A DNA stretch of 64,000 nucleotides. Origin: a virus (taxonomy: Duplodnaviria > Heunggongvirae > Uroviricota > Caudoviricetes). Position 1 is the stretch's first letter, and each line of letters opens with the position of its first letter. The DNA lies in the IMG/VR virus record IMGVR_UViG_3300043418_000226; one strand, given 5' to 3'. Made by a program: the position numbers and the translations under genes. Shown here piece after piece: positions 40,092 through 63,497 of this stretch. The notes beneath the pieces are model-generated. The model was given only the letters and a program-made list of their open reading frames with translations, did not search any database and had not been told where the DNA came from.

Positions 40092-40098
40092 ATTTGTG

Positions 40099-40172: not shown

Positions 40173-40179
40173 ATGTATA

Positions 40180-40374: not shown

Positions 40375-40389
40375 AACATTTATTTTTAG

Positions 40390-40459
40390 AGGTTAAGATT
40401 GGAATCGAACCAACTCCGTGAGATTTGCAGTCACACCGGCCTCCACGACCAACTTAACC
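40390..40459 (-). tRNA. tRNA-Cys(GCA): tRNA-Cys (GCA)
   Basis: acceptor GGTTAAG/CTTAACC, loop CT-GCA-AA, U73 discriminator. Confidence 0.7.
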
Positions 40460-40507
40460 ATTTTTTCGTACGAAAAAGTGCGTTTGATTACACTTTTCCT
40501 GACGTAG

Positions 40508-40579
40508 AGGTCCCATAAGGATTCGAACCTTAACTTTAACATTCGTAGTGTTAGGTGCTATCCGTTACACCATAAGACC
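40508..40579 (-). tRNA. tRNA-Arg(ACG): tRNA-Arg (ACG)
   Basis: stem TAACA/TGTTA, loop CT-ACG-AA, T-arm TAAGGTTCGAATCCTTA. Confidence 0.75.
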
Positions 40580-40607
40580 CTTTACTGTTTACCGTTTACA
40601 GTAAACA

Positions 40608-41069
40608 TTATTTACCCAACGAATCTTTATTTGAAATCGTTATTGGATTTAAACCAACAAAGTCTTTGATAATTTTTCTAACTTCGTTATTACTTGTCCA
40701 AACAATACTGTGTTCAGATTCGGGATTATATTCACCTTCAACCATATAAACCACTATAGTATTTGGTTCTAAAGTTAGGAATCCATGTGCTTTATCATTT
40801 TTAATTAACACTGCATTAGAATCGTCAATAACTTCAAATTCAGTTTCTCCGGTTTCAATATTGACAGCAAAATCGACAATCTTACCCTGAACGACTTTAA
40901 TGTATTTTGTTTGTGGTGGGTTCGTTTGATAATGTAACCCCCTAAAGGTGTATTCTTTATCATTAATACTAACTGAACATTGATCCCACTTCATACCTAA
41001 TTCGGTCGTTGATAATGGGGTGTACGACCCTCGGCTATCCTTAAACGTTTTATGTTCTATTTTTTCCAT
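40608..41069 (-). CDS. dTDP-4-dehydrorhamnose 3,5-epimerase (RmlC)-like cupin
   Basis: FRGLHYQTNPPQTKYIKVVQGKIVDFAVNI and NDKAHGFLTLEPNTIVVY align with the RmlC signature. Confidence 0.7.
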   Translation of the reverse strand: MEKIEHKTFKDSRGSYTPLSTTELGMKWDQCSVSINDKEYTFRGLHYQTNPPQTKYIKVVQGKIVDFAVNIETGETEFEVIDDSNAVLIKNDKAHGFLTLEPNTIVVYMVEGEYNPESEHSIVWTSNNEVRKIIKDFVGLNPITISNKDSLGK

Positions 41070-41275
41070 TGTGTTTTTCTATTATGTTTCCAAGTTCGAT
41101 ACATTCTCATTTGAAAACTCATTATACATTTATTTGGGTTCTTATACCCTCTACGATATCTTGGATAGAAATTATATCCTTCATCCCAATATGGGTCGAA
41201 TTTATCGTTTGTTACTATTTTATACTCTTTGTTGTGAGTTGTCGTTTGACTTACTTTGTTTTTGAACGGTTTCAT
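41057..41275 (-). CDS. hypothetical small protein
   Basis: 72-aa ORF. Confidence 0.35.
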   Translation of the reverse strand: MKPFKNKVSQTTTHNKEYKIVTNDKFDPYWDEGYNFYPRYRRGYKNPNKCIMSFQMRMYRTWKHNRKTQWKK

Positions 41276-41334
41276 ATATTAGGGATTTAACCTAATGCAT
41301 GTCGAATTGTATTTTCATAGTTTTTATTTATTTG

Positions 41335-41403
41335 CACAAATTGAAAGAATCGAACTTTCTCCTATGGTTTTGGAGACCATTTGGCTACCTTAGCCCAACT
41401 TGT
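41335..41403 (-). tRNA. tRNA-Trp(CCA): tRNA-Trp (CCA)
   Basis: acceptor ACAAGTT/AATTTGT, stem ATGGT/ACCAT, loop CT-CCA-AA. Confidence 0.75.
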
Positions 41404-41408
41404 ATTGG

Positions 41409-41480
41409 TACTGCGACGGGGAATCGAACCCCGGCCTCATCATGGAAAGTGATACGTGTTAACCTCTTCACTACCGCAGC
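41409..41480 (-). tRNA. tRNA-Glu(TTC): tRNA with anticodon UUC (Glu-like, atypical C37)
   Basis: acceptor GCTGCGG/TCGCAGT, loop CT-TTC-CA, T-arm CGGGGTTCGATTCCCCG. Confidence 0.55.
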
Positions 41481-41486
41481 ATATTG

Positions 41487-41561
41487 TGACCCCGAATGGA
41501 TTCGAACCATTGACTCCATCATTAAAAGTGATGTGCTCTAAACCAACTGAGCTACGAGGTC
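41487..41561 (-). tRNA. tRNA-Lys(TTT): tRNA-Lys (UUU)
   Basis: acceptor GACCTCG/CGGGGTC, loop CT-TTT-AA. Confidence 0.8.
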
Positions 41562-41565
41562 ATTG

Positions 41566-41638
41566 TGGGCCCTACAGGAATCGAACCTGTTCCTCTAGTT
41601 CTTCAGACTAGCGTACGCACCAGCTATACCAAAGGCCC
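41566..41638 (-). tRNA. tRNA-Phe(GAA): tRNA-Phe (GAA)
   Basis: acceptor GGGCCTT/AGGGCCC, stem CTAGT/ACTAG, loop CT-GAA-GA. Confidence 0.8.
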
Positions 41639-41645
41639 ATTATTG

Positions 41646-41717
41646 TGTTTACGGCTGGATTCGAACCAACGACAGCTGACGTATCAGGTCAGAACTCTAC
41701 CACTGAGTTACGTAAAC
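41646..41717 (-). tRNA. tRNA-Ile(GAT): tRNA-Ile (GAU)
   Basis: acceptor GTTTACG/CGTAAAC, stem CTGAC/GTCAG, loop CT-GAT-AC. Confidence 0.8.
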
Positions 41718-41751
41718 AATTTATTCACCAAAATTTCAAAGAACCATTTTG

Positions 41752-41824
41752 TGGACCGTCCCGGCCTCGAACCGGGGACTCGACAGTGCAAGTGTCGTGT
41801 GTTAACCATCTATACCAACAGCCC
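41752..41824 (-). tRNA. tRNA-Ala(TGC): tRNA-Ala (UGC)
   Basis: stem CGACA/TGTCG, loop CT-TGC-AC, T-arm CCCGGTTCGAGGCCGGG. Confidence 0.8.
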
Positions 41825-49771: not shown

Positions 49772-49964
49772 GGATAAATTTATATTTTTAGGTATATTAT
49801 TTATTGTTGTAGGTTGTTCACCCATTCAAAAAGGACTGTCCAATAATCAACAAATTGAAGGTATAAATATCCCTATTTGGTCACCTAACATGGGGATGAT
49901 TATGGAATCAAAAATATATTACATTAAAAATAAAAAATATAAGAAAATAAAAACCCATAAATGA
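49764..49964 (+). CDS. small putative lipoprotein
   Basis: MGRDKFIFLGILFIVVGCS lipobox-like; internal start within tracked ORF 49623..49964. Confidence 0.35.
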   Translation: MGRDKFIFLGILFIVVGCSPIQKGLSNNQQIEGINIPIWSPNMGMIMESKIYYIKNKKYKKIKTHK

Positions 49965-51352
49965 AAAAAAATATATTTTTTCTCTTAATTATTTTTTCAT
50001 TTATGTTTACACAAAAAGTAAACGCACAAACTTTTACACAAACATTCATTGATAAGTGTACCGGTGAAGTAAAGACCGCCATTACCACGTATGTAAATGG
50101 TAACGCTGTCGTTTCATTCTATAATCAAACAAAAACATTTACACCTTTGGAGGTTCAAACAGGTGTTTTACAATCTTGGTTACAAACAACCTATTTAACA
50201 TATTCAACAATGGGATGTCCAACTACAAATACAGTTGTGCAACAGACAATTACAACTCAAGTTGCACAAGCAGTTGCAGCATCCGCGTCTCAAGCTGCCA
50301 GCACCGCTGCCAGCACCGCAGCAAGTGCTGCTGCAAGTGCTGCAAGTAATTCAGCATCTTCCGCCGCTAGTAACTCAGCTTCGTCAGCGGCAAGTAGTTC
50401 CGCATCTTCCGCCGCCAGTAGCTCGTCATCGGCAGCAAGTAGTTCAACACCCCCACCTTCGAACAGTTCGTCATCTTCAAATAACTCATCAACATCCACT
50501 GAAAATAAATCAAGTGGAGGTTCGTCATCTTCGGAATCTAAAAGTGAAAGTAAATCTGAATCTAAAAGTGAAAGTAAATCTGAATCTAAAAGTGAAGATA
50601 AAAAGGAAGAACAAAAATCCGAAGAGAAAAAATCCGAAGAAAAGAAAGAAGAAAAGAAAGAAGAAAAGAAAGAAGAAAAGAAAAAACAACAAAATCTAAA
50701 TCCAATGTTGCTGGCTTCGGATTTAACCACTGCACAGTCGGCTGACGGTAGATATTCCATGGCATTAACTATGGGTATTTCTAAATCATCTTTAATGGGT
50801 GATAAATCATTTAGTTTAAATGGAATGATTTACTCTACAATGGATCAATTTGCAATATCTTCAAGTGCAACTGTTATGGATTTAAATGATAAGGGACAAT
50901 TAAGTTCAATAAACAGTTATTCATTTACCGCTGCGTATTTAAAAGGAACATGGATGGGATTAATGGGATATACTTGGATTAAACCTCACCCAAAATTAGG
51001 TACATTTGGATATAACATAGGTGCCATTACATTATTAACGGAAGGTACTACACAATCGTACGACCTAAGTGTATCAACATCAACAGTTGTATTTTGGACA
51101 AAACCGTTTCAATACAGTAAAAAATTATCAATATCTCCCCAAATATTTACTATGTATTCACCAATAGCCTTTAACACTTTTACGGGTGTAACCACTGTAG
51201 GTAGAGATTTTGGATTTTTAGTTGGTACTTCTATTGATTATAAAATAACTAAAAGATTTGGGTTCTCGTTTAATTATAAACTCAACATGAACACTCAACC
51301 CGGTTCACCGTTCCTTAGTAATTTCTTAGTTGGATCGAGAGTTATGCTTTAA
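49961..51352 (+). CDS. secreted low-complexity protein (Ala/Ser-rich and SESK/EEKK repeats) with beta-rich C-terminal domain
   Basis: signal peptide MKKNIFFLLIIFSFMFTQKVNAQ; repeats 50536-50694. Confidence 0.65.
   Translation: MKKNIFFLLIIFSFMFTQKVNAQTFTQTFIDKCTGEVKTAITTYVNGNAVVSFYNQTKTFTPLEVQTGVLQSWLQTTYLTYSTMGCPTTNTVVQQTITTQVAQAVAASASQAASTAASTAASAAASAASNSASSAASNSASSAASSSASSAASSSSSAASSSTPPPSNSSSSSNNSSTSTENKSSGGSSSSESKSESKSESKSESKSESKSEDKKEEQKSEEKKSEEKKEEKKEEKKEEKKKQQNLNPMLLASDLTTAQSADGRYSMALTMGISKSSLMGDKSFSLNGMIYSTMDQFAISSSATVMDLNDKGQLSSINSYSFTAAYLKGTWMGLMGYTWIKPHPKLGTFGYNIGAITLLTEGTTQSYDLSVSTSTVVFWTKPFQYSKKLSISPQIFTMYSPIAFNTFTGVTTVGRDFGFLVGTSIDYKITKRFGFSFNYKLNMNTQPGSPFLSNFLVGSRVML
50536..50694 (+). 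repeat. coding tandem repeats (24-bp unit TCTAAAAGTGAAAGTAAATCTGAA about 2.7 copies, then GAAGAAAAGAAA about 4 copies)
   Basis: direct repeats visible in the sequence. Confidence 0.8.
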
Positions 51353-51701
51353 TAAATTCTCGGTCGATACATAATGGTTTAATATGTTGCCTTACATTTT
51401 TTCTAAAAGAAGGTGTAATTGAAAACTTTGAAATTGTAAAACCAAAAGTTGAACATAATAATAGAATACCTATAAATAAATTTACCATAATAATTGTGTT
51501 TTTTTTATATAACTATTAAAATAATACAATAAAAATGTTGAATTACCAAGAAAAATTGGATTTTATTAATAAGTTGACAAAGGTTCTTTATATAATACAA
51601 TTTTTATATATTAAATAAAAAATCCTCGAAGTAGAAACCCCGAGGATATGACAAAAAATGATAAATGTATCTCTCTCCTGATACAAATAAAACATACAAA
51701 A

Positions 51702-52070
51702 TTATTTTTTAATAGTCAACGATTCAAATAAAATTTTTATTTCTGAACATTTTTCATAATCTTCAATACTTTCGAAAAATGGTAAAATGTCTCTTGTTAA
51801 TACAATAGTATCCGTTTTACTAAACTTAAATTCAGTGTCCCATTCCAATCCGCGTATAATCGCCTGAATGTATAAACTTAGAACTCTTTTTTTATTATTT
51901 TCAAAACCTTTAAAAACCTCAATAATATTTTCATAAATTGATTTTTTATTAATATCATAAAAATCGGTAAAGTCTTCGTACTTACCTTTTATGTACATGG
52001 TTTTAAATGGTGTTCTGGTTTTACTGTCGTAGGCCATTGATTTTTTAGTTGTTATACTTTTATTTTCCAC
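51702..52070 (-). CDS. hypothetical protein
   Basis: 122-aa ORF. Confidence 0.5.
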   Translation of the reverse strand: MENKSITTKKSMAYDSKTRTPFKTMYIKGKYEDFTDFYDINKKSIYENIIEVFKGFENNKKRVLSLYIQAIIRGLEWDTEFKFSKTDTIVLTRDILPFFESIEDYEKCSEIKILFESLTIKK

Positions 52071-52533
52071 TTCTATCCCATTTAGCTTTACGTAATTCAG
52101 GTGACATATGAAACTTTTCTTCTATTATATGAGGAATGGTGACTCTTATACAATTTTGAGGTAATCGACAATTCATTAAATAATTATTGATATAACCCAT
52201 CATATTTGAACTACCAATCGGATTTGCGGAGTGTACCAACACTTCGGGCAAAGGTATATTAGTGTCTAAACTTAAGTTAACCATAAATTTACAACAGTCC
52301 ATTCCTGTTTTTTCTTCGATGTTTTTGTAATCTAACAAATAATTGTTTTTAACGTTAGTGTAATATTCGTACATTGCTTGGTCACCTAAATCATGGTCTA
52401 AAGATATTAAATCAATACCATCTAATCCATATTCATTTATTGCGTCAACGAACTCTTCATAATTTCTCACTACTGTCCAACCTTCTTCAGTTGGAGTTCT
52501 AACGTCATCAAGGTATAATTTTATTTTACTCAT
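52060..52533 (-). CDS. hypothetical protein adjacent to RNA ligase
   Basis: 157-aa ORF overlapping neighbours. Confidence 0.55.
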   Translation of the reverse strand: MSKIKLYLDDVRTPTEEGWTVVRNYEEFVDAINEYGLDGIDLISLDHDLGDQAMYEYYTNVKNNYLLDYKNIEEKTGMDCCKFMVNLSLDTNIPLPEVLVHSANPIGSSNMMGYINNYLMNCRLPQNCIRVTIPHIIEEKFHMSPELRKAKWDRSGK

Positions 52534-53566
52534 CTTTTTTAAATGGTTTTGAATATGTTGGGTAAATTGAATTCCAAATCATCTCATTTAATTGATTTGA
52601 ATAAGAATCTAACCTTTTAAATAAAAATGATTTATTTGGATTATTTTTTATTTTCTCCGCAAATTCTTTTTTATTTATTAATTCTTTAAATTCCTCTTCT
52701 ACCTCGATTTTAATTAAATCAAATTTATCTTGTAAATTAGAAACGGTATTTTTTACCCAATCATAAAATTCATCCGGTACCTTATCTAATATATCATCTA
52801 ACGGTTTACCATCTTTCAAATATTCCCAAATATCTCTATTTGATATATTAGTTAAAATGTGATGAAGTCGACAATATTCGTCGCCTTTAATCTTCATTCT
52901 AAAACCATTTTTAAATCTAATTACAAATCCCTCTTTACTATCACTAATGTCTTTTTTAATGACCGTAAAATCAGTTATCCCGTCGTATTTCTTAACCAAT
53001 TCAAATCCAAGTTCTTCATACGATTCATTGTGGATATTATATTCGTAACCTTCAGTAACATCTGAAGTTGAATTCGTTTGAATTGAACCCAGTAAAACTA
53101 ATTTTTCATCATCGCCATAGTTAACCACGATTCTATTTTGAGGGTAAATTATTTCAAATAGATATGTACAATCACTCGGTAGATATTTGTATTTGTATTT
53201 TTTTAATATCTCAGTTGCCTTAATTGATTGTTCAGAAATGAATGAACCTCTAGTTGCCATTATCCATTCGTCTTTGTAGTTGAATAGGATACCTAAAGAA
53301 CCATCCATTTTTTCATAGACATCAAATGTTTCGTTAGGTATGTTAATGTCCTCATGTTCCTCGTAATTGAAAAATTTACCGAATGGTCTGGCAATAACTT
53401 TTCCTTCCGAATTTGTAACAAGTCCGCGACATTGCAAAGTAATTTCATCCCAAAGTTTTTCATATTGTACCTTTGGTGAATAATTCCAAATGGTTAAATC
53501 TAAAGTTGGGTGAACTTGTTTATGTAATAAACCTTCGTTATAATATTTTTCTAATGTTTCTAACAC
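52526..53566 (-). CDS. ATP-dependent RNA ligase (Rnl2-like nucleotidyltransferase)
   Basis: motif I YEKMDGSLG (KxDG) about 95 aa from the N-terminus; size and layout as in Rnl2/DraRnl; tracked start is GTG. Confidence 0.65.
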   Translation of the reverse strand: MLETLEKYYNEGLLHKQVHPTLDLTIWNYSPKVQYEKLWDEITLQCRGLVTNSEGKVIARPFGKFFNYEEHEDINIPNETFDVYEKMDGSLGILFNYKDEWIMATRGSFISEQSIKATEILKKYKYKYLPSDCTYLFEIIYPQNRIVVNYGDDEKLVLLGSIQTNSTSDVTEGYEYNIHNESYEELGFELVKKYDGITDFTVIKKDISDSKEGFVIRFKNGFRMKIKGDEYCRLHHILTNISNRDIWEYLKDGKPLDDILDKVPDEFYDWVKNTVSNLQDKFDLIKIEVEEEFKELINKKEFAEKIKNNPNKSFLFKRLDSYSNQLNEMIWNSIYPTYSKPFKKDE

Positions 53567-53814
53567 TTATATTTTTTTATAAATTCCCACAGTATAAAGC
53601 CACCTGCCCCACTGTAATGACAAATATAAACCATTTAAACCTTTTTTCCAAATTTTTCTATGAAATGATGGTGAATTTGTTTCAAAATATAAATGGACAC
53701 TCGGTATAACATGAAATGCCCATGTTTCCGTAAATAAGTGAGAATATAGTTTCATCTTTAAAAAAGATTTGGTATTTGAAGTAATATTAATGTATGACTT
53801 AATAAATCGACTCA

Positions 53815-54240
53815 TTACAATTTAACGTGGAATCTGTTTTTCATCTCCGTTAATTTCTCATTGGGGACACCGTGAATATTCTCACCACCATGTCTATTTT
53901 CAACTATAATAGTATGAACTCTATATCCGTATCTTTCGGCAATTGTAAAATATGGTTCCATTTCCCACTCTTGTGTAAATGTATTGGCAACAATAATTTT
54001 GAAACTTTCCAATTTCATTCTTTCAGCACATCTTTGTTGACAATTATTATGTGCTTCCTTTAATTTAGATGCATCAAATACGTACTCCCCTTTACCATTT
54101 AAAAAATAGTCATCTGCGGAAATTACATCACCGGTATTGCCCGATGGGTGTGTTAATAATACTTCAGCTAATGTTGTTTTACCTGAACCAGGAACACCTC
54201 TAACTAATATAAGATCTCCTTTATATTCTTTTTTGTTCAT
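53815..54240 (-). CDS. polynucleotide 5'-kinase (P-loop, AAA_33/PNK-like)
   Basis: ILVRGVPGSGKTTLAE Walker A; 141 aa; adjacent to the RNA ligase. Confidence 0.7.
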   Translation of the reverse strand: MNKKEYKGDLILVRGVPGSGKTTLAEVLLTHPSGNTGDVISADDYFLNGKGEYVFDASKLKEAHNNCQQRCAERMKLESFKIIVANTFTQEWEMEPYFTIAERYGYRVHTIIVENRHGGENIHGVPNEKLTEMKNRFHVKL

Positions 54241-54521
54241 ACGATTCTATATTTTTGTATAAATACTATATGATTAAAATGTCAGTTATTATGTAATTTT
54301 TACTTTTTAATCGTATTTTTTTTTCTCTTTGTTTTTTGTTTTGGTTTTACCAACGGAACGTAATCGAATTCTGTTTCTCCGGGTTCGATAATGTTGGTTT
54401 TTATTTTAGTAAATTTATCCTTAATATATTGAATAAAAAAAATAATAGATGTTGTCATTGGGTTAGATGTGTAGTTAACAATTAATAAAAATTGGGCCGA
54501 AGTAAATTCGACCCGATATCT

Positions 54522-54701
54522 TTATTTTACAGACGTTGTGTCTGAGGTGATTTCAGCGGTTGTTGAATCAGTGGCGGAAACTGCGGTTGAGTCAAGATTA
54601 GATGCTGTTGAGTCGTTTGTTTCTTTTGAGGTAGACCCGTTACCACATGATGTTAATGCAACTGTTGCGATAACACCTAAAGCTAAAATATATTTTTTCA
54701 T
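54522..54701 (-). CDS. small Ser/Thr-rich lipoprotein
   Basis: MKKYILALGVIATVALTSC lipobox. Confidence 0.45.
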   Translation of the reverse strand: MKKYILALGVIATVALTSCGNGSTSKETNDSTASNLDSTAVSATDSTTAEITSDTTSVK

Positions 54702-54744
54702 AATTAAAAGATAGTGAAAAAATTCCATAAAAAAAAATATTTTA

Positions 54745-54772
54745 AATAAAAAACCCCAACGAGTTGTCGGGG
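54745..54772 (-). terminator. intrinsic terminator (minus strand)
   Basis: CCCCGACAACTCGTTGGGG hairpin then T-run on the minus strand. Confidence 0.6.
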
Positions 54773-54889
54773 TTTAAGGTCATTAAGTGGGTTCAACACC
54801 ACTCACTTTAAAACGAAAAGGTAATCGACAAAGAGTACCCATGAAGATATAAATATATATAACTTAGGGTAAAAGTCAACTATTTATTG

Positions 54890-56902
54890 TTATTTTTTTA
54901 AAATTTCCAATTTTTCGTTTTTAAATTTTAAAGTAATCGATTGATTTTCAACAATATTACCTTTTAAAATCTCTTCACTTAAGAAATCTTCACATAAATT
55001 CTGAATAATTCTTTTCAGTGGTCTTGCGCCATATTCCTCTTGTGAGTTAAGTTGAAATATTCTATCAATCACTGTTTTATCGAATTTAATTGAATATCCT
55101 TTATCAACCAATCTTTTATTTAATTTTTCAACTTCAATGTTGATAATTTTTTTCAATGTTTCTTCATTTAAAGAATTGAAAAGTATGATATCATCAATAC
55201 GATTTAAAAATTCGGGATTGAATTGTTGTTTTAATGATTTTTGTATCATTGTTTTTCTTACTTCATATTCTTGTAATTGACTTGATGTCGTTGAAAACCC
55301 AACCCCATTACCAAAATCAGAAACTTTTTTGGCTCCGACATTTGATGTCATAATGATAAGACAATTGGTAAAATTAATTTTTCTACCAAATGAATCTGTT
55401 AAATGACCTTCATCTAAAATTTGGAGTAATATATTAAACACGTCTTTGTGTGCTTTTTCAATTTCATCAAATAAGATTACAGAGAAAGGGTTGTTTTTAA
55501 CTTTTTCAGTTAATTGACCTCCTTCATCGTAACCAACAAATCCCGGAGGTGAACCAATTAATTTAGAAACGTTATGTCGGTCCATGTATTCACTCATATC
55601 TACACGAATAATTTTGTCGGGGTCACCAAATAACGTGTTTGCCAAAGATTTGGCCAAGTGTGTTTTACCTACACCGGTTGAGCCTAAGAATATGAAGGAT
55701 CCAATTGGTTTATTCGCATCTTTAATACCGACCCTATTTCTTCTAATTGCCTTTGAGATAGTTGAAATTGCATCGTCTTGACCAATTACTTTTTGACCTA
55801 AAATTGTTTCCATATTCAATAATTTAGTAGTTTCTTTACTATCAAGTTTATGAATAGGAACACCGGTCATATCAGAAATAATCGAATATACATCATCGAT
55901 TGTAACGGGTATTTTATTTACTTTTTGTTTTTCGGACCATTTTAGTTTTTCATCTTCGAGTTTAACTACAATCTTTTTCTCGTCATCTCTAAGTTTCGCG
56001 GCTTGTTCGTAGTTTTGACTTTTAACTACCAATAATTTCTTTTCCCTTACATCCTCAATTTGTTTTTTTAATTTTTCAATTGATTCAGGAACCCTCATTG
56101 ATACTCTTTTTTCTGACCCAAGTTCATCCAATACATCAATCGCTTTATCGGGAAATTGTCTATCGGTTATATAACGACTCGATAGTTTGACAATATTATC
56201 AATTACACCGTCCTCATATTGAACTCTATGGTAATCTTGGTAGGAATCTTTAAGGTTATTAAGAATGTCCACCGTTTCTTCTAATGTAGGTTCATTTAAA
56301 ATAACTTTTTGAAATCTTCTAACCAATGCGGCATCTTTCTCAATATGTTTTTTAAATTCATCCAAAGTCGTTGCACCAATACATTGGATTTCTCCACGAG
56401 CAAGTGCAGGTTTAAGAATATTTGCGGCATCCATTGCACCACTTGAGTTACCTGCACCAACCATAGTATGTAGTTCATCAATGAATACAATTACGTTCGG
56501 TGCTTCAAGTAATTCATTTAGAATCGCCTTTATTCTCTCCTCAAATTGTCCACGATATTTTGTACCTGCAACTAAAGATGTTAAATCTAACGACATAATT
56601 CGTTTATCTAATAAATTAGTTGGGCAATCTCCTTTCACTATCATTAATGCGAGTTTTTCAACTAATGCAGATTTACCTACACCGGCATCCCCTACAATTA
56701 CCGCATTATTTTTCTTTTTACGTGATAGAATTTGTGCAATTCTTTTCACTTCTTTATCCCTACCAACAATAGGGTCAATTTTACCATCCTCCGCAAGTTT
56801 TATTAAATCTCGTGAGAAATTATCTAAAATTGGTGTTGTTGAACCTTTACGTCCCTTTTTGGGTGTTGAGGTTGGTCCGTCTTCAAAAAAGTCTACTGCC
56901 AT
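54890..56902 (-). CDS. ClpA/ClpB/ClpC-family AAA+ unfoldase (two NBDs, no N-domain)
   Basis: GDAGVGKSA and GSTGVGKTHLAK Walker A motifs, FIDELH and ILFDEIEKAH Walker B motifs, sensor and arginine-finger regions. Confidence 0.85.
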   Translation of the reverse strand: MAVDFFEDGPTSTPKKGRKGSTTPILDNFSRDLIKLAEDGKIDPIVGRDKEVKRIAQILSRKKKNNAVIVGDAGVGKSALVEKLALMIVKGDCPTNLLDKRIMSLDLTSLVAGTKYRGQFEERIKAILNELLEAPNVIVFIDELHTMVGAGNSSGAMDAANILKPALARGEIQCIGATTLDEFKKHIEKDAALVRRFQKVILNEPTLEETVDILNNLKDSYQDYHRVQYEDGVIDNIVKLSSRYITDRQFPDKAIDVLDELGSEKRVSMRVPESIEKLKKQIEDVREKKLLVVKSQNYEQAAKLRDDEKKIVVKLEDEKLKWSEKQKVNKIPVTIDDVYSIISDMTGVPIHKLDSKETTKLLNMETILGQKVIGQDDAISTISKAIRRNRVGIKDANKPIGSFIFLGSTGVGKTHLAKSLANTLFGDPDKIIRVDMSEYMDRHNVSKLIGSPPGFVGYDEGGQLTEKVKNNPFSVILFDEIEKAHKDVFNILLQILDEGHLTDSFGRKINFTNCLIIMTSNVGAKKVSDFGNGVGFSTTSSQLQEYEVRKTMIQKSLKQQFNPEFLNRIDDIILFNSLNEETLKKIINIEVEKLNKRLVDKGYSIKFDKTVIDRIFQLNSQEEYGARPLKRIIQNLCEDFLSEEILKGNIVENQSITLKFKNEKLEILKK

Positions 56903-57089
56903 CTTTATATGTTTTATTGTTTACAAAAGTAATACATTTTATTCTAATAACCAAATTTTATTTTAGTTTTAGATTTTTAAATGAATTTACGGTACAAATA
57001 TATAACAAAGAAATTAATTACAAAATATAATGGGGTTTTTTATTTGATATTTATTGATTATATTGTATTATAAATTAAAAAAAGACATT

Positions 57090-57335
57090 ATGGCAATTAT
57101 TTCAGAATCAATCAATGGAAAAATGATAGACATTATCATTAACTCCTCTAATTTAAAATCGGCATCTTTTAACACTGAAAGTGAGGATTTAACAGTAGTT
57201 TTTAACAACGGCTCTATTTATGAGTATGATAAAGTCCCTTGGACTAAGTTTACCAAATTTAGGTTAGCTGAATCCCAAGGAAAATATTTCAATGAAAATA
57301 TTGCAAAAACCCACAAATTTAAAAAAGTAGGATGA
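57090..57335 (+). CDS. KTSC-domain protein
   Basis: DLTVVFNNGSIYEYDKVPWTKFTKFRLAESQGKYFNENI matches the KTSC pattern; start moved to MAIIS. Confidence 0.6.
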   Translation: MAIISESINGKMIDIIINSSNLKSASFNTESEDLTVVFNNGSIYEYDKVPWTKFTKFRLAESQGKYFNENIAKTHKFKKVG

Positions 57336-58090
57336 GTTTATTCGAAGAATTAATTGAAGACAGGTCGGAAGACAAAAAAATTGTAAAATCTTTTAAAGTT
57401 AAAGATTCATTATCCGGTGATATATTTGATAAATCGGGTAAGACATATAACATGAGAGAAGAAATAAGAAAGTCACTTTTAAAAATTGCCGATGATTTTA
57501 TTGAAACTCTTGGTGTTGAATTTTTTATTCATGACGTAATCTTAACTGGTTCCCTTTCTAATTTTAATTGGTCCAATTATTCTGACGTTGATTTACATAT
57601 ATTAATAGATTATAAAGAAACGGATTATGATTTGAGTTTATTAAAAGAATTTTTTGATGCTAAAAAAAATGTTTGGAATGAGAAACATAATATTGTAATA
57701 AAAGGGTTCGATGTTGAAATATATGTCCAAGATGTTGATGAACCTCACGTATCTTCGGGTGTTTATTCTATACTAAACAATAAGTGGTTAATTGAACCAG
57801 AACCAACTAAACCTAATATTGATGACCGTTTAATTATTCAAAAAGGTGAAGAATATACAACAAAAATAGATAATTTAATAAAAAGAAACGAAAAAGGTGA
57901 CGATGTGTTGAAAGACATTGATAACCTTAGATTAAAACTAAAAACTTTTAGACAAAGTGGTTTAGATGCCGGTGGAGAGTATTCTTATGAAAATTTAACC
58001 TTTAAATTATTAAGAAGAAACGGTGATATTGAAAGACTATTACAATTAAAATCAAAAATAACGGATAAGAAATTGTCCATAACACAATAA
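57332..58090 (+). CDS. Pol-beta-superfamily nucleotidyltransferase
   Basis: ILTGSLSNFNWSNYSDVDLHILID fits the hGS..x(9-13)..DhD NTase motif. Confidence 0.55.
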   Translation: MSLFEELIEDRSEDKKIVKSFKVKDSLSGDIFDKSGKTYNMREEIRKSLLKIADDFIETLGVEFFIHDVILTGSLSNFNWSNYSDVDLHILIDYKETDYDLSLLKEFFDAKKNVWNEKHNIVIKGFDVEIYVQDVDEPHVSSGVYSILNNKWLIEPEPTKPNIDDRLIIQKGEEYTTKIDNLIKRNEKGDDVLKDIDNLRLKLKTFRQSGLDAGGEYSYENLTFKLLRRNGDIERLLQLKSKITDKKLSITQ

Positions 58091-58160
58091 AGAACCTAAT
58101 TTTTTTCTATATATCAATGTATTTATAGGATAAGAATAAGTATATCTAACAATCAACAAA

Positions 58161-59144
58161 ATGGCAGATTTAAAACCCCTTGGTAGTGAAAAGCTTAACG
58201 GAGACGACAAATTAAAAAGAATTCTCGAGCTAACCTACTTTAATAACAACAATAAAAAAACAACCACAACGTCTAATGCGGAATTAGTAAGTGAATCTAA
58301 AACCGGTGGAATATACGGTATCGTTAAAGAAAAAGATGCATATTATGTAAAAAGAGGTTTAAATGAAAGTTCTCTTGATTATATTGGTGGTATGTTTATG
58401 AAAAACAAAAATAGATTTTCTTCATATGGTGAGGCTCTTAAAAGACTTGACTTACTAAAAGGTCAGGAAGAATTACAAGAAGCCACAAAATATGTTTTAA
58501 AACCTAGTAAACCGAAAGAGGAGGCACCAATGGCGGAACCAACAATGGACGCACCTGTTGCCGCACCAACTGATGAGTTACCCGCAATTGAGGATTTACC
58601 TTCTGATGATATGTCAACTGACGAATTACCTTCTGATGATATGTCAACTGACGGTGAAGAGGCACCAAGTAAACGTTCTGATTATATGGCTGAAGTTCAG
58701 AAATATTCAGGTAAATTGGGTCAAGAATTAAGAGATTTACATGATAGAATGGAAAGCGATGATATTAAGTATGTTCTTAATATGATAATTTCCGCTGTTG
58801 ACTTAGACAAATTAGACTTAGATGATATTGAAGAGATTGCTAAAAAATTCGAACGTGAAGAAGAGGAACCATCTGAGGAACCAACTTCAGGTGAAGAAGA
58901 AGTACCTTCAGACGAACCAACTTCAGGTGAAGACGAGGATTTAGGTGAAGATGCTATGTCAGCATTAGATGAGTTTATAAACACCCCAATTCAATCTGAC
59001 GAAATTGACATGTCAAACTATGATTTAGGTCAGGAAGTAAGTGAAGAAGACGATAGTAAAGATTCATATGAGATTGATATCGACGAAATCAAAAATGATA
59101 TTAACAACAGTATTAGTAGTACATTAAGTAAATACTTTAAGTAA
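58161..59144 (+). CDS. acidic repeat protein (scaffold-like?)
   Basis: pI very low; 30-bp direct repeat 58596-58655 (LPSDDMSTDE x2) and EEPTSGE repeats. Confidence 0.6.
   Translation: MADLKPLGSEKLNGDDKLKRILELTYFNNNNKKTTTTSNAELVSESKTGGIYGIVKEKDAYYVKRGLNESSLDYIGGMFMKNKNRFSSYGEALKRLDLLKGQEELQEATKYVLKPSKPKEEAPMAEPTMDAPVAAPTDELPAIEDLPSDDMSTDELPSDDMSTDGEEAPSKRSDYMAEVQKYSGKLGQELRDLHDRMESDDIKYVLNMIISAVDLDKLDLDDIEEIAKKFEREEEEPSEEPTSGEEEVPSDEPTSGEDEDLGEDAMSALDEFINTPIQSDEIDMSNYDLGQEVSEEDDSKDSYEIDIDEIKNDINNSISSTLSKYFK
58596..58655 (+). repeat. 2 x 30-bp direct repeat within the CDS
   Basis: TTACCTTCTGATGATATGTCAACTGACGAA duplicated. Confidence 0.85.
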
Positions 59145-61724: not shown

Positions 61725-63497
61725 ATGAACAGTAAATTAGCCCAACTTACGGAGTACGCTCGAATTATGAAAGATGCTCCATATGCGTTAAAGACATACT
61801 TAACAACGTATGACAATACACAGAAGCAATATGTTCCGTTAGAACTATTTCCTGACCAAGTACAATTAATTCAGGACTACGAAAAGTATAACGAAAACAT
61901 TACAAGAAAATACAGACAGGCCGGAGTTTCGACGGTAACTGCGGCATGGATATCAAAAAAATTACAAACGGCGAAAGATACAGAACCTGAAAGGGTTCTT
62001 ATTATTGCCAATAAACGTGATACTGCCATTGAGATGGCCAATAAGGTTCGTCACTTCTTAGAACAATGGCCTGAATGGATTAACGTTGGATTCTCACCGG
62101 ATAAAAACTCAGAGAGTAGATTTAGATTAAATAATGGTTGTGAAGTTAAAGCCGTTGCAACATCACCAGATGCGTTACGTGGTTTTACACCAACGATACT
62201 TGTATTTGATGAGGCGGCTTATATTGATGCAGGTGAAGATTTTTGGGCGGCATCCATGGCATCGTTATCAACAGGTGGTAAAATTATTCTTATTTCAACA
62301 CCCAACGGTTATGACCCAATTTATTATGGCGTTTATGACCAAGCATTGAGAGGTGTGAACGATTTTCACATTACCGATTTAAGATGGTTTAAAGACCCAC
62401 GTTATACTAAAGATTTAAGATGGGTGAAATGTAATGACATTGTTCATTATATGTTAAATAGAGAACAGTACGACGATAACGACATCGTTATGACAGACTT
62501 TAATATAGAAAAGTATAATGAATACTTAGATGACGGTTATAAACCTTTATCATCTTGGTTTGAGTCAATGTCTAAGAAATTCAAATATGATAGACGTATG
62601 ATTTCTCAGGAGTTAGAATGTGACTTCTTAGGTTCAGGGGATTCTGTTATACCCGGAGAAACTCAGGCGAACATTGCAAAGAATATGATTCGTTTACCAA
62701 AGGAAAAATATATGCAAGGTACGTTTTGGCATTGGAAAGAACCTATTAAAGGTCATCGTTATATTATGGGGGTTGACGTTAGTAGAGGGGATAGTGAGGA
62801 TTTCTCTTCGATTAATATAGTGGATTTCGATGATAGGGAACAGGTTGCTGAATATATCGGTAAAATACCTCCTGACGATTTGGCGGCAGTGGCGTACAAA
62901 TGGGGAATACTATATGAAGCATTTATCGTTATTGATATTACCGGTGGTATGGGTGTTGCAACATCAAGGAAATTACAAGAGATGAATTATAAGAATCTTT
63001 ATATTGATGGTGTTAATACCAAAAACATATGGGAATATAATTCTAAAGCAATGGAAAAAATACCCGGTCTTAATTTCAATAACAAAAGAACACAAATTGT
63101 TGCTGCTTTTGAAGAACAATTAAGAAAGGGATTTATTGTAAGGTCGAGTAGGTTATTAGGCGAACTAAACACATTTGTTTATCTTAATGGAAGACCTGAC
63201 CACATGAAAGGTCAACATGATGATGCAATTATGAGTATGTCAATGGCGTTATATGCTGGTGATATGTGTTTCAATCAGTTAGAAAAAAATGAAAACGCTA
63301 ATAAAGCAATGTTAGAATCTTGGACAATGTCCGAGAGAACATATGAAACAAGCAAAACATTTTATTCTTACGGCACATCATTTGACCCGATAGGTTCAAT
63401 GCAAACTGATGATAACTTATATCATGGAAATAACACGACCCAAGTTCCAAAACAAAGTTATCAAGAATATTCGTGGTTATTTGGTAAATCTAAATAA
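61725..63497 (+). CDS. terL: terminase large subunit
   Basis: ATPase Walker-B-like ILVFDEAAYID; nuclease-domain MGVDVSRGDSEDFSSINIV and HDDAIMSMSMA motifs; 590 aa. Confidence 0.8.
   Translation: MNSKLAQLTEYARIMKDAPYALKTYLTTYDNTQKQYVPLELFPDQVQLIQDYEKYNENITRKYRQAGVSTVTAAWISKKLQTAKDTEPERVLIIANKRDTAIEMANKVRHFLEQWPEWINVGFSPDKNSESRFRLNNGCEVKAVATSPDALRGFTPTILVFDEAAYIDAGEDFWAASMASLSTGGKIILISTPNGYDPIYYGVYDQALRGVNDFHITDLRWFKDPRYTKDLRWVKCNDIVHYMLNREQYDDNDIVMTDFNIEKYNEYLDDGYKPLSSWFESMSKKFKYDRRMISQELECDFLGSGDSVIPGETQANIAKNMIRLPKEKYMQGTFWHWKEPIKGHRYIMGVDVSRGDSEDFSSINIVDFDDREQVAEYIGKIPPDDLAAVAYKWGILYEAFIVIDITGGMGVATSRKLQEMNYKNLYIDGVNTKNIWEYNSKAMEKIPGLNFNNKRTQIVAAFEEQLRKGFIVRSSRLLGELNTFVYLNGRPDHMKGQHDDAIMSMSMALYAGDMCFNQLEKNENANKAMLESWTMSERTYETSKTFYSYGTSFDPIGSMQTDDNLYHGNNTTQVPKQSYQEYSWLFGKSK

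What the first reader, a model, noticed from the sequence alone, without database searches (positions are those of the whole stretch)
52526..58090. RNA repair set (Rnl2-like ligase plus polynucleotide kinase) near a KTSC-domain protein and a Pol-beta nucleotidyltransferase
The RNA ligase (KMDG motif I) and the stand-alone P-loop polynucleotide kinase are adjacent. This mirrors the T4 Pnkp/Rnl1 system that repairs host anticodon-nuclease cuts in tRNA. A KTSC domain (LysRS C-terminal-like) protein and a minimal NTase (possible CCA-adding or tRNA-end repair enzyme) follow within 4 kb. Together with the large tRNA array, this suggests active defence of the tRNA pool against host tRNA-targeting toxins such as PrrC, RloC or VapC-like nucleases.
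Basis: partly seen in the sequence, partly recalled or inferred. Interest (0 to 1): 0.55.

Follow-up and report, generated by a model that had tools for sequence, protein, structure and literature searches.

The report
Phage RNA break-repair operon (kinase, ligase, cREC)
A giant phage carries a compact operon for mending cut RNA (a 5' kinase, a T4 Rnl1-type RNA ligase and a predicted cyclic-phosphate-opening "cREC" protein); this gene set has already been described computationally in other phages, and the nearby KTSC and nucleotidyltransferase genes are not part of it.

Summary
The genes are real, but the labels and the grouping need correcting. On the minus strand, between two terminator-like hairpins, a tightly coupled operon (54458-51702) encodes a 52-aa remnant ORF, a 141-aa P-loop kinase, an 82-aa ORF, a 346-aa RNA ligase, a 157-aa cREC protein and a 122-aa ORF.

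- **Ligase:** it is Rnl1-type, not Rnl2-like. All T4 Rnl1 catalytic residues are kept, but its C-terminal domain is not detectably T4-like.
- **Kinase:** it folds most like polynucleotide kinases. Homologues occur fused to Rnl1-like ligases and to HD, 2H and CNPase phosphoesterases.
- **cREC:** This family is predicted, but never shown, to process 2',3'-cyclic phosphates.

Kinase, ligase and cREC stay linked in distant phages despite rearrangement, often together with a calcineurin-like phosphoesterase. Iyer et al. (2021, 2022) already described this constellation.

The KTSC and nucleotidyltransferase genes lie on the other strand, beyond a ClpB/ClpC-like ATPase. They head a run of co-oriented genes leading to terminase and portal. 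They sit near the ligase only within this phage's own lineage, and the nucleotidyltransferase shows no affinity to CCA-adding enzymes.

Verdict: a new member of a known, computationally predicted kind. Interest is moderate to low.

The parts
54494..54514 (-). Terminator-like hairpin after the lipoprotein-like gene; marks the upstream boundary of the repair operon
   Evidence: 8-bp stem (5 G-C pairs) followed by a T-run. A second, stronger hairpin at 54751-54775 follows the Clp gene.
54300..54458 (-). 52-aa ORF, first in the unit. It looks like a truncated remnant of a 116-132-aa membrane protein of relatives (shared EPGETE[LF]DY motif). No predicted role in repair.
   Evidence: called as a gene on the source contig.
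53815..54240 (-). 141-aa stand-alone P-loop kinase; predicted 5'-OH polynucleotide kinase. P-loop G15-T22 lies at 54175-54198; the invariant Asp43 aligns with T4 Pnk Asp35.
   Evidence: PF13671 at 1.3e-14 and phrog_2071 at 1e-39. AF2 model pLDDT 82; best PDB folds are the CthPnkp kinase, Pnkp1 and T4 Pnk. hhalign against T4 Pnk gives 89% probability, E 2e-6. Homologues are fused to ligase, HD, 2H or CNPase domains.
53567..53815 (-). 82-aa ORF of unknown function. Its ATG overlaps the kinase stop (TAATG), and its stop abuts the ligase GTG start.
   Evidence: Conserved at 37-45% (88% in L004) in some relatives and absent in others. No family match.
52526..53566 (-). 346-aa ATP-dependent RNA ligase with an Rnl1-type adenylyltransferase domain. 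Motif I K86-M-D-G lies at 53300-53311.
   Evidence: PF09511 at 2.4e-19, phrog_562 at 1.6e-71, T4 Rnl1 structure 2c5u at 9e-16. hhalign against T4 RnlA gives 99.4% probability, E 2.4e-21 over T4 residues 31-271. Catalytic positions are invariant in 17 relatives.
52060..52533 (-). 157-aa cREC protein (cyclic-phosphate-processing Receiver domain); predicted 3'-end healing enzyme. Its ATG overlaps the ligase stop by 8 nt. Conserved residues are D9-D10 (52504-52509) and D46-H47-D48 (52390-52398).
   Evidence: PF20274 at 1.1e-23 (84.2 bits against a cut-off of 27) and phrog_1479 at 3e-28. Alignment of 16 homologues. Literature prediction in PMC7824862 and PMC9503650.
51702..52070 (-). 122-aa ORF of unknown function, last gene of the unit. 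It overlaps the cREC stop by 11 nt and follows the ligase or cREC in every syntenic relative whose locus reaches that far.
   Evidence: No Pfam, PHROG, NCBIfam or PDB-profile match.
51622..51647 (-). Terminator-like hairpin that closes the operon
   Evidence: 11-bp stem (5 G-C pairs) followed by TTTTTATTT.
54890..56902 (-). Inside the finding's span but NOT part of the repair set: a 670-aa ClpB/ClpC-like double AAA+ ATPase followed by its own terminator-like hairpin
   Evidence: PF07724 at 5e-67, PF10431, phrog_4871 at 4e-243.
57054..57335 (+). Inside the finding's span but NOT part of the repair set: a KTSC-domain protein (the likely start is the ATG at 57090, giving 81 aa)
   Evidence: PF13619 at 8.5e-17. 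The source-contig gene call is 81 aa. It is the first gene of a plus-strand run that ends in terminase and portal.
57332..58090 (+). Inside the finding's span but NOT part of the repair set: a 252-aa minimal Pol-beta-fold nucleotidyltransferase with a helical C-terminal domain; substrate unknown
   Evidence: Motif G73-S74...D85-x-D87 is invariant. phrog_36119 at 5e-43. PDB matches by sequence profile and by fold are all weak. About 3000 homologues, the 120 best at 69% identity or more.

Best explanation
Bases 54458-51702 (minus strand) form one operon of a roughly 319-kb jumbo phage. It encodes an RNA end-healing and sealing pathway. [quoted passage not shown]

Proposed steps:
1. The 141-aa kinase transfers phosphate from an NTP to the 5'-OH end. 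Asp43 acts as the general base and the P-loop Lys21/Thr22 hold the NTP.
2. The cREC protein opens the 2',3'-cyclic phosphate through its Rec-type acidic pocket (D9, D10, D46, D48), and may also remove the phosphate.
3. The Rnl1-type ligase is adenylylated on Lys86 and joins the 3'-OH and 5'-phosphate ends.

What is shown: family membership, intact catalytic residues, operon structure, and repeated genomic linkage and gene fusion of these parts.

What is inferred: every enzymatic activity, the nature of the RNA substrate, and whether cREC alone completes 3'-end healing. A second phosphoesterase may be needed. An MPPED2-like one lies at 28701-29444, and relatives carry a calcineurin-like one inside the cluster.

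The KTSC, nucleotidyltransferase and Clp genes are neighbours by synteny only.
For: **Operon structure**
- Start and stop codons overlap or abut: TAATG; TAA directly followed by GTG; 8-nt and 11-nt overlaps.
- Terminator-like hairpins flank the unit.

**Ligase**
- PF09511 at 2.4e-19 and T4 Rnl1 structures at 9e-16. hhalign gives 99.4% probability.
- R47, K64, F65/F66, K86, D88, G89, E138, E212, G213, K225 and K227 align with T4 R54, K75, F76/F77, K99, D101, G102, E159, E227, G228, K240 and K242. The essential status of most of these T4 residues rests on my own knowledge; PMC6379707 confirms only R54 and K75.
- All are invariant in 17 relatives down to 39% identity, except F66, which is nearly invariant (at least 90%).

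**Kinase**
- Best fold matches are polynucleotide kinases: 4jt2 at 7e-5, 4xrp, 1ly1. hhalign against T4 Pnk gives E 2e-6, with D43 aligned to D35.
- The family has 9,669 clusters at 50% identity.
- Members are fused to Rnl1-like ligases (P0333; also P0273 and P0309 by BLAST to the window ligase or by motifs), HD domains in both orders, a 2H-like domain (by HxT motifs), CNPase, and an N4BP2-like architecture.

**cREC**
- PF20274 at 1.1e-23 with a conserved acidic pocket.

**Linkage that survives rearrangement**
- L032: kinase, ORF, metallophosphoesterase, ligase, cREC.
- L056: ligase, metallophosphoesterase, kinase.
- L040: cREC, metallophosphoesterase, ORF, ligase.
- Proteus phage Mydo: metallophosphoesterase, two ORFs, ligase, cREC-like gp168, kinase, ORF, Sir2.
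- Pseudomonas phage Pyxpy02: HD, ORF, metallophosphoesterase, two ORFs, ligase, kinase.

**Published prediction**
- The same constellation is described in PMC7824862 and PMC9503650.
Against: - No activity has been measured for this kinase subfamily or for any cREC protein. PMC9503650 states that cREC is experimentally uncharacterised.
- Two of the five residues I recall as essential in T4 Pnk are not matched in the alignment: F46 stands at R38 and E120 at R126. R116 aligns with R122.
- Fold-search TM-scores are only about 0.6.
- cREC is missing from roughly a third of the distinct syntenic relatives, which keep kinase and ligase. It is therefore dispensable or replaceable.
- No 2'-phosphotransferase, sirtuin, HAD, 2H or RtcB gene was found among the window's ORFs of 110 aa or more.
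- The ligase C-terminal 90 residues do not align with the T4 Rnl1 domain that confers tRNA specificity, so tRNA as the substrate is an assumption.
Confidence: 0.7

Rival explanations
1. One reading: one five-part tRNA-pool defence module, in which KTSC binds tRNA and the Pol-beta nucleotidyltransferase rebuilds tRNA 3' ends (CCA-adding or RlaP-like) alongside kinase and ligase.
For: All five genes lie within 6 kb, and the block is syntenic in about 40 related contigs. KTSC is discussed as a possible RNA-binding or translation-support domain in jumbo phages (PMC7824862). Ligase-associated Pol-beta nucleotidyltransferases (RlaP) do exist.
Against: - The genes are on the opposite strand, separated from the repair genes by a Clp gene and two hairpins.
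- KTSC and the nucleotidyltransferase head a run of co-oriented genes that continues to terminase and a T4-type portal.
- In distant phages that keep kinase, ligase and cREC together, neither gene lies within 8 kb.
- In Maribacter phage Molly the nucleotidyltransferase homologue has no KTSC (at meaningful significance) or ligase within the 12.7-kb locus.
- No RlaP or CCA-enzyme Pfam family appears among the hits.
- The listed nucleotidyltransferase homologues are 69% identical or more. In shared relatives the nucleotidyltransferase is no more conserved than the ligase (54-71% against 50-66%), so conservation does not mark it as a partner.
Confidence: 0.08
2. The ligase's main role is structural, like the second activity of T4 gp63 in promoting tail-fibre attachment. 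The kinase and cREC would then be unrelated nucleotide-metabolism enzymes.
For: PHROG 562 is labelled 'RNA ligase and tail fiber protein attachment catalyst'. The operon abuts plus-strand genes with PA14 and tail-collar domains.
Against: - Every adenylyltransferase catalytic residue is invariant across the family.
- The kinase and cREC are translationally coupled to the ligase.
- Kinase-ligase fusions exist.
- The PHROG label is inherited from T4 and is not evidence for this protein.
Confidence: 0.07
3. cREC, possibly together with the kinase, acts on soluble nucleotides rather than RNA ends. [quoted passage not shown] The cluster would then partly be a counter-signalling device.
For: Iyer et al. 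propose both roles for cREC, and many jumbo-phage cRECs are fused to Nudix. In Flavobacterium phage immuto the closest cREC (60% identity) is not next to a ligase.
Against: Here cREC overlaps the ligase stop codon, and it recurs next to Rnl1-type ligases in several arrangements. No ADP-ribosyltransferase, Sir2 or Nudix gene is nearby.
Confidence: 0.12
4. The set repairs DNA nicks with 5'-OH and 3'-phosphate ends rather than RNA.
For: From my own knowledge, some bacterial end-healing kinases such as Runella HD-Pnk act on DNA. The HD-Pnk architecture is confirmed in PMC6097658. HD-kinase fusions occur in this kinase family.
Against: The ligase belongs to the RNA-ligase Pfam family and to no DNA-ligase model. 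cREC is predicted to act on ribose 2',3'-cyclic phosphates, which DNA cannot form.
Confidence: 0.04

Closest known systems
Phage ligase / cREC / nucleotide-kinase neighbourhoods described by Iyer, Burroughs, Aravind and colleagues (Viruses 2021, PMC7824862; Viruses 2022, PMC9503650); prototype Proteus phage Mydo / Escherichia phage V5
   Same: The same three families sit side by side: a T4-like (Rnl1-type) RNA ligase, a cREC protein and a small AAA_33 kinase. The Mydo kinase is 39% identical to the window kinase. Mydo gp168 carries the cREC motifs LDDLRDP, DNDLG and TSNP.
   Different: The window has no Sir2, MazG or calcineurin-like phosphoesterase in the cluster. The gene order differs (kinase first). 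Two lineage-specific small ORFs (82 and 122 aa) are embedded. The host phage is a jumbo phage of about 319 kb, probably infecting Bacteroidota; that host is inferred from the nearest isolates, Flavobacterium, Tenacibaculum and Cellulophaga phages.
T4 Pnkp (PseT) plus Rnl1 (RnlA) tRNA repair pathway
   Same: It has the same logic: a 5' kinase, 3' end healing and an Rnl1-type ligase. The ligase adenylyltransferase domain is homologous. The kinase is a remote homologue of the T4 Pnk kinase domain. In T4 the two genes also lie within 1.5 kb of each other.
   Different: The kinase stands alone, with no HAD phosphatase domain. 3' healing is assigned to an unrelated Rec-fold protein. The ligase C-terminal domain is not detectably the T4 tRNA-specificity domain. 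The NCBIfam T4 RnlA equivalog scores 72.6 bits against a cut-off of 242.
Clostridium thermocellum Pnkp / Hen1 and Pnkp1-Rnl-Hen1 bacterial RNA repair systems
   Same: The best structural matches of the kinase model are the CthPnkp and Pnkp1 kinase domains. Relatives of the window's cluster use a binuclear metallophosphoesterase for the phosphatase role, as CthPnkp does (PMC2190708 title and abstract).
   Different: There is no Hen1 methyltransferase and no fused architecture. The window cluster itself lacks the metallophosphoesterase.
Runella slithyformis HD-Pnk end-healing enzyme
   Same: Many homologues of the window kinase (42-50% identity) are fused to an HD phosphoesterase domain in the same N-HD / C-kinase order. 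The HD-Pnk architecture is described in PMC6097658.
   Different: The window kinase has no HD domain. Direct homology to the Runella protein could not be tested: the paper is not held and the genome scan found only HD domains.

Membership tests
Rnl1-type ATP-dependent RNA ligase (T4 RnlA) | Covalent nucleotidyltransferase motifs I, III, IV and V with the lysine nucleophile | tested here: met
   K86-x-D88-G89, E138, E212-G213 and K225-x-K227 align with T4 K99/D101/G102, E159, E227/G228 and K240/K242. All are invariant in 17 relatives.
Rnl1-type ATP-dependent RNA ligase (T4 RnlA) | [quoted passage not shown] | tested here: met
   R47, K64 and F65 align with them and are invariant.
Rnl1-type ATP-dependent RNA ligase (T4 RnlA) | T4 Rnl1-specific C-terminal domain, which defines the clade and confers tRNA specificity (PMC6379707) | tested here: inconclusive
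   The hhalign alignment ends at T4 residue 271 of 374, leaving the window's residues 256-346 unaligned. The NCBIfam equivalog TIGR02308 scores 72.6 bits against a cut-off of 242.
Rnl1-type ATP-dependent RNA ligase (T4 RnlA) | Seals 3'-OH / 5'-phosphate RNA ends | not testable with these tools
   Needs biochemistry.
   PF09414 scores E 0.0053 and 17.4 bits, below its 27-bit cut-off, while PF09511 scores 70.6 bits.
5'-OH polynucleotide kinase (T4 Pnk / CthPnkp kinase-domain clade) | P-loop GxxGxGK[ST] and a catalytic Asp general base (T4 Asp35; residue roles from my own knowledge) | tested here: met
   G15-T22 reads GVPGSGKT. D43 aligns with T4 D35 and is invariant.
5'-OH polynucleotide kinase (T4 Pnk / CthPnkp kinase-domain clade) | Arg residues that contact the substrate phosphate and the NTP (T4 Arg38 and Arg126; residue roles from my own knowledge) | tested here: not met
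   The invariant F46 stands at T4 R38 and a variable residue (E120) at R126. R116 aligns with R122. The subfamily has its own invariant NTFTxxWEM and ENRH motifs.
5'-OH polynucleotide kinase (T4 Pnk / CthPnkp kinase-domain clade) | Fold closest to known polynucleotide kinases | tested here: met
   Of the seven Foldseek PDB hits at E 1e-3 or better, six are CthPnkp (4jt2, 4gp6, 4jst), Pnkp1 (4xrp, 4xru) and T4 Pnk (1ly1); rank 4 is an adenylate kinase. E-values are 7e-5 to 7e-4 and TM about 0.58. Model pLDDT is 82.
5'-OH polynucleotide kinase (T4 Pnk / CthPnkp kinase-domain clade) | Association with RNA ligases and 3'-phosphoesterases | tested here: met
   Fusions to RNA_lig_T4_1 (P0333), HD (P0258, P0326 and others), CNPase (P0289) and a 2H-like domain (P0276). 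Neighbourhoods.
cREC (PF20274, cyclic-phosphate-processing Receiver domain) | Family model above the gathering score, and a conserved Rec-type acidic pocket | tested here: met
   84.2 bits against a cut-off of 27. L8, D9, D10, R12, D46-H47-D48-L49, S102-A103-N104 and N110 are invariant in 16 homologues; P14 is nearly so.
cREC (PF20274, cyclic-phosphate-processing Receiver domain) | Hydrolyses 2',3'-cyclic phosphate ends | not testable with these tools
   This is a prediction only; PMC9503650 states that cREC remains experimentally uncharacterised.
T4 Pnkp bifunctional kinase-phosphatase | HAD-type DxDxT 3'-phosphatase domain fused to the kinase | tested here: not met
   The kinase is 141 aa with a single domain. 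No HAD family was found among the window's ORFs of 110 aa or more.
Sirtuin-centred phage RNA repair neighbourhood, type 2 (PMC9503650) | A Sir2 gene linked to ligase, cREC, kinase and MazG | tested here: not met
   Ligase, cREC and kinase are present. No Sir2 or MazG was found in the window's ORFs. The rest of the 319-kb genome was not examined.
KTSC domain (PF13619) | Family model above the gathering score | tested here: met
   61.1 bits against a cut-off of 25.
CCA-adding enzyme or RlaP ligase-associated nucleotidyltransferase | Match to the family models, or a specific fold match | tested here: not met

The most novel reading that the evidence does not exclude
In this minimal operon, cREC may be the only 3'-end-healing enzyme. 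It would be a Receiver-fold aspartyl phosphoesterase that both opens the 2',3'-cyclic phosphate and removes the phosphate, replacing the HAD domain of T4 Pnkp. The ligase, whose C-terminal domain is not T4-like, may define its own Rnl1-derived clade with a different RNA specificity. Together with the N4BP2/CNPase-like kinase, this would be a three-protein repair pathway built entirely from parts that have never been characterised biochemically.
Probability: 0.3. Interest if true: 0.55.

Novelty: new member of a known kind. Interest (0 to 1): 0.33.

Why it matters
Phage RNA repair is the counter-move to host anticodon nucleases and other RNA-cutting toxins. This operon adds no new principle. 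It is, however, a compact and uncluttered example, with no Sir2, MazG or metallophosphoesterase in the cluster, of a repair set known only from comparative genomics.

That makes it a convenient test bed for two untested predictions:
- that cREC domains process cyclic-phosphate RNA ends;
- that the very large NTFT..WEM/ENRH kinase family (about 9,700 clusters at 50% identity) comprises polynucleotide kinases.

For annotation, the work corrects the ligase type and detaches the KTSC and nucleotidyltransferase genes from the repair story.

Tried and rejected
- **Megablast of 51500-58200 against phage genomes:** no match. The phage has no close sequenced isolate.
- **Single-sequence PDB search with the kinase:** only spurious MS2-coat and phospholipase hits. 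The profile search gave weak P-loop-driven hits. A structure prediction plus fold search was needed.
- **Structure prediction with an alignment that included locus-derived sequences:** It was redone with database proteins only.
- **tblastn of the relatives' cluster metallophosphoesterase and 166-aa ORF against the window:** nothing.
- **Genome-contig scan with an HD-kinase alignment, to reach Runella HD-Pnk:** the patterns came only from the HD domain and recovered only HD proteins. The Munir & Shuman 2017 paper is not held.
- **Rfam scan of 51000-58500 and of the split-ligase loci:** nothing meaningful. The 82-aa ORF region is therefore not a known RNA, and the ligase interruption is not a recognisable group I intron.
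- **Profile of the 122-aa ORF against the PDB:** no hit better than E 0.12.
- **sigma-70 promoter scan:** no more sites than in shuffled sequence (39 against 42.8), so it is uninformative.
- **cREC and the cluster metallophosphoesterase as mutually exclusive alternatives:** considered and rejected, because both occur together in L031-L035, L069, L040 and L077.

Full report
**What is in the sequence**

The window comes from a jumbo phage. The exact kinase protein lies on a JGI metagenome contig of 318,764 bp, whose independent gene calls reproduce the ORFs used here. There is no nucleotide-level match to any sequenced phage. The nearest isolates by protein similarity are Flavobacterium, Tenacibaculum and Cellulophaga phages.

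Reading the minus strand from 56902 down to 51702, the genes are:

| Coordinates | Product |
|---|---|
| 54890-56902 | 670-aa ClpB/ClpC-like AAA+ ATPase |
| 54522-54728 | 68-aa lipoprotein-like ORF |
| 54300-54458 | 52-aa ORF |
| 53815-54240 | 141-aa P-loop kinase |
| 53567-53815 | 82-aa ORF |
| 52526-53566 | 346-aa ligase |
| 52060-52533 | 157-aa protein (cREC) |
| 51702-52070 | 122-aa ORF |

On the plus strand, diverging from the Clp gene, lie a KTSC protein (57054 or 57090 to 57335) and a 252-aa nucleotidyltransferase (57332-58090). They are followed by four unassigned genes, the large terminase (61725-63497) and, on the source contig, a T4-type portal.

**Operon structure**

From the kinase to the 122-aa ORF the genes are translationally coupled:
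- The kinase stop and the 82-aa ORF start share a base (TAATG).
- The 82-aa ORF's TAA is followed directly by the ligase's GTG start.
- The cREC ATG lies 8 nt inside the ligase.
- The 122-aa ORF's GTG lies 11 nt inside cREC.

Terminator-like hairpins with T-runs lie on the minus strand at 54751-54775 (after Clp), 54494-54514 (after the lipoprotein-like gene) and 51622-51647 (after the 122-aa ORF). Seven such sites were found against 2.6 expected from shuffled sequence. The repair genes therefore form their own unit at 54458-51702, distinct from Clp and from the plus-strand genes.

**The ligase**

- It matches PF09511 (RNA_lig_T4_1) at 2.4e-19 and 70.6 bits. The Rnl2-type model PF09414 stays below threshold at 17.4 bits against a cut-off of 27.
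- PDB sequence matches are the three T4 Rnl1 entries, at about 1e-15.
- A profile of 17 relatives aligns with T4 RnlA at 99.4% probability and E 2.4e-21, over T4 residues 31-271.
- R47, K64, F65/F66, K86, D88, G89, E138, E212, G213, K225 and K227 stand at T4 R54, K75, F76/F77, K99, D101, G102, E159, E227, G228, K240 and K242. All are invariant in the family except F66 (at least 90%). T4 K119 is replaced by the invariant R106.
- PMC6379707 states that R54 and K75 are essential and that RNA ligase clades are defined by their appended domains. The essential roles of the other T4 residues rest on my own knowledge of the Shuman laboratory's mutational work.
- The last 90 residues or so do not align with the T4 C-domain that confers tRNA specificity. 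The T4 RnlA equivalog model scores far below its cut-off.

It is therefore an Rnl1-type adenylyltransferase with a C-terminal domain of its own.

**The kinase**

- It matches PF13671 (AAA_33) at 1.3e-14 and phrog_2071 at 1e-39.
- The family is highly conserved. It has its own invariant motifs: the P-loop, A-D43-x-x-F46, NTFTxxWEM and ENRHxxxNxH.
- An AlphaFold model (pLDDT 82) finds mainly polynucleotide kinases among its best PDB folds. These are the C. thermocellum Pnkp kinase (7e-5), Pnkp1 of the Pnkp1-Rnl-Hen1 complex and T4 Pnk, with TM-scores of about 0.58.
- hhalign against the T4 Pnk kinase domain gives 89% probability and E 2e-6. The T4 sequence was verified as 100% identical to T4 pseT.
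- In that alignment K21/T22 match K15/S16 and D43 matches the catalytic D35. T4 R38 and R126 are not matched (F46 and E120), while R116 aligns with R122.
- An exhaustive search finds 9,669 clusters at 50% identity, mostly stand-alone proteins of 130-150 aa.
- The longer members are informative. They include Rnl1-like ligase plus kinase (P0333 by Pfam; P0273 and P0309 by similarity or motifs), HD plus kinase in both orders, a 2H-like domain plus kinase (P0276, with two HxT motifs), kinase plus CNPase (P0289), and an N4BP2-like protein of 2,322 aa with DUF1771.

Repeated fusion to RNA ligases and to 3'-end phosphoesterases is the strongest evidence that the family is a 5'-OH polynucleotide kinase.

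**The 'unassigned' protein**

- It matches PF20274 (cREC_REC) at 1.1e-23.
- Sixteen homologues share an invariant L-D-D-x-R near the N-terminus (followed by a nearly invariant Pro), D-H-D-L in the middle, and S-A-N further on. This is the Receiver-type acidic pocket.
- Iyer et al. defined cRec as a divergent Receiver domain that is never paired with histidine kinases. It is found with RNA ligases and NAD/ADP-ribose systems, and is predicted to resolve 2',3'-cyclic phosphates. They state that it is experimentally uncharacterised.

**Evidence from related loci**

Seventy-nine viral contigs encode relatives of the ligase.

- Within the window's own lineage (50-95% ligase identity) the whole block is syntenic. 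The order is p327, nucleotidyltransferase and KTSC on one strand, then Clp, lipoprotein-like gene, kinase, (82-aa ORF), ligase, (cREC) and the 122-aa ORF on the other. That synteny says little about function.
- More distant contigs are more informative. Clp, KTSC and the nucleotidyltransferase are no longer nearby, yet the repair genes remain together in new orders. They are joined by a calcineurin-like metallophosphoesterase of about 215 aa (phrog_547).
- The arrangements seen are: kinase, ORF, metallophosphoesterase, ligase, cREC (L031-L035, L069); ligase, metallophosphoesterase, kinase (L056-L062, L065); cREC, metallophosphoesterase, ORF, ligase (L040, L077); and metallophosphoesterase, kinase, ligase (L079).
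- In Proteus phage Mydo, a prototype named by Iyer et al., the order is metallophosphoesterase, two ORFs, RNA ligase, gp168 (with cREC motifs), kinase (39% identical), an ORF and Sir2, with MazG further on. In Pseudomonas phage Pyxpy02 it is HD, ORF, metallophosphoesterase, two ORFs, RNA ligase and kinase (50% identical).
- cREC is absent from roughly a third of the distinct syntenic relatives, which have no replacement in the cluster. It is an accessory part.

**Completeness of the pathway**

- The cluster metallophosphoesterase has no homologue in the window.
- Pfam scans of the window's ORFs of 110 aa or more found no Tpt1/KptA, Sir2, HAD, 2H or RtcB.
- There is an MPPED2-like metallophosphoesterase at 28701-29444, matching PDB 3rl4 at 1e-40. 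It sits between the tRNA array and the tmRNA gene.
- That gene and its position next to the tmRNA are conserved in relatives, including on contigs with and without cREC.
- It is a candidate second 3'-end enzyme, but nothing ties it to the ligase.

**KTSC and the nucleotidyltransferase**

- KTSC is a solid Pfam match.
- The nucleotidyltransferase has the invariant G73-S74...D85-x-D87 motif and further conserved acidic residues. Its Pfam matches are all sub-threshold.
- Its best PDB profile hit is the DrrA AMPylation domain at 0.013.
- About 3,000 homologues were found (the 120 best are 69% identical or more), including in Lak megaphages, Maribacter and Synechococcus phages.
- In Maribacter phage Molly the homologue has no KTSC (at meaningful significance) or ligase within the 12.7-kb locus.

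I conclude that the two genes are neighbours of the repair operon, not components of it. The nucleotidyltransferase's substrate cannot be named from these data.

**Mechanism and confidence**

The best-supported reading (confidence 0.7) has three parts:
1. The kinase phosphorylates 5'-OH ends.
2. cREC handles the 2',3'-cyclic phosphate.
3. The ligase seals the break through a Lys86-AMP intermediate.

The kinase's constant pairing with the ligase argues that the lesions have 5'-OH ends. These are the products of metal-independent ribonucleases such as anticodon nucleases. Family membership, intact active sites, operon structure and linkage are shown. All activities, the RNA substrate and the sufficiency of cREC are inferred. 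The 26 tRNA genes, the tmRNA and SmpB elsewhere in the window make tRNA repair biologically sensible but are not evidence for it.

**Novelty**

The ligase, cREC and kinase constellation, with an optional calcineurin-like phosphoesterase, is already in the literature as a computational prediction (PMC7824862, PMC9503650). This locus is a new, pared-down member in an uncultured jumbo phage. Its value lies in being a clean test case for cREC and for the kinase family, not in adding a new principle.

Noticed in passing
window 27271-41824 (minus strand): The phage encodes its own trans-translation kit: a tmRNA (27271-27679, tag ATSNVAVV) and SmpB (33798-34229, PF01668 at 2.8e-43). These lie among 26 tRNA genes, including a CUA-anticodon (amber suppressor-type) tRNA at 30846-30919 and an unusually long 86-nt tRNA-Met at 29579-29664. 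An HNH endonuclease gene (36883-37413) sits inside the array.
   Followed up: partly
window 28701-29444 (-); loci L133-L157: An MPPED2-like binuclear metallophosphoesterase (PDB 3rl4 at 1e-40) lies between the tRNA array and the tmRNA gene. The gene is followed by the tmRNA gene within about 1.8 kb in 9 of the 12 relatives scanned. It occurs on contigs both with and without cREC. It could be an RNA-end or cyclic-nucleotide phosphodiesterase.
   Followed up: partly
L024 3277-7156 (relative of window 54890-56902): In one relative the Clp ATPase gene is split at the second Walker A motif (GSTGVGK | T). The split looks like a naturally split intein: the N-piece ends GVGK-CICGDTE... and then stops, and the C-piece ends ...GILSHN-TYLAKS. 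A free-standing 406-aa ORF lies between the halves.
   Followed up: partly
L071 741-2874 and L079 5407-8121 (relatives of window 52526-53566): In two relatives the ligase gene is interrupted by an insert at about residues 143-150 (1.1 kb in L071, 1.65 kb in L079). In L071, which was examined, the break falls inside motif III (...YLFEIIY | ...QNRIVV) and the insert carries a 279-aa GIY-YIG-type endonuclease gene plus a 70-aa ORF. The downstream half has its own ATG and no Rfam intron was detected. It is either a split gene or an unrecognised intron.
   Followed up: partly
window 54890-56902 (-): The phage encodes a ClpB/ClpC-like double AAA+ ATPase that lacks the usual N-domain. It has a UVR motif in the middle region and a VGF tripeptide in D2 that resembles a ClpP-docking loop. 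It is followed by its own terminator-like hairpin and is highly conserved in the lineage (75-84%).
   Followed up: no
window 6979-9612 (+), 10226-10861 (+), 12585-13628 (-): Unusual cargo for a phage: a full TonB-dependent receptor (plug plus beta-barrel, 877 aa), a DNA/RNA non-specific endonuclease, and a GMP reductase/IMPDH-like enzyme. Several glycosyltransferases and methyltransferases lie at 14450-21613.
   Followed up: no
window 31029-32954 (-); L005 6388-7308, L009 6476-7396, L032 4850-5764: A 641-aa SPFH/Band-7 protein lies in the tRNA region. Relatives carry a separate SPFH-like protein of about 305 aa (judged by eye, not Pfam-tested) plus a small membrane protein just upstream of the kinase. 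The window's 52-aa ORF (54300-54458) looks like a remnant of that membrane protein.
   Followed up: no
L009 7953-9161, L032 7995-9191: Some relatives' ligases carry an insertion of about 45 aa (YYE(Y/E)EL(S/T)DE(K/R)RYNIWFNNNYETGME(R/K)FF...) between motif I and the conserved ATRGS segment. It is absent from the window's ligase.
   Followed up: no
L006, L028, L036, L037 (relatives of window 57054-57335): The KTSC gene is duplicated in tandem in several relatives, with two hits at 51-80% identity.
   Followed up: no
window 49961-51352 (+): A 463-aa protein with a signal-peptide-like start and a long Ser/Ala-rich then Lys/Glu-rich low-complexity middle. Both strands show spurious long ORFs there. 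Its conserved C-terminal half has no family match. It lies between the tail-collar and PA14 genes and the repair operon.
   Followed up: no
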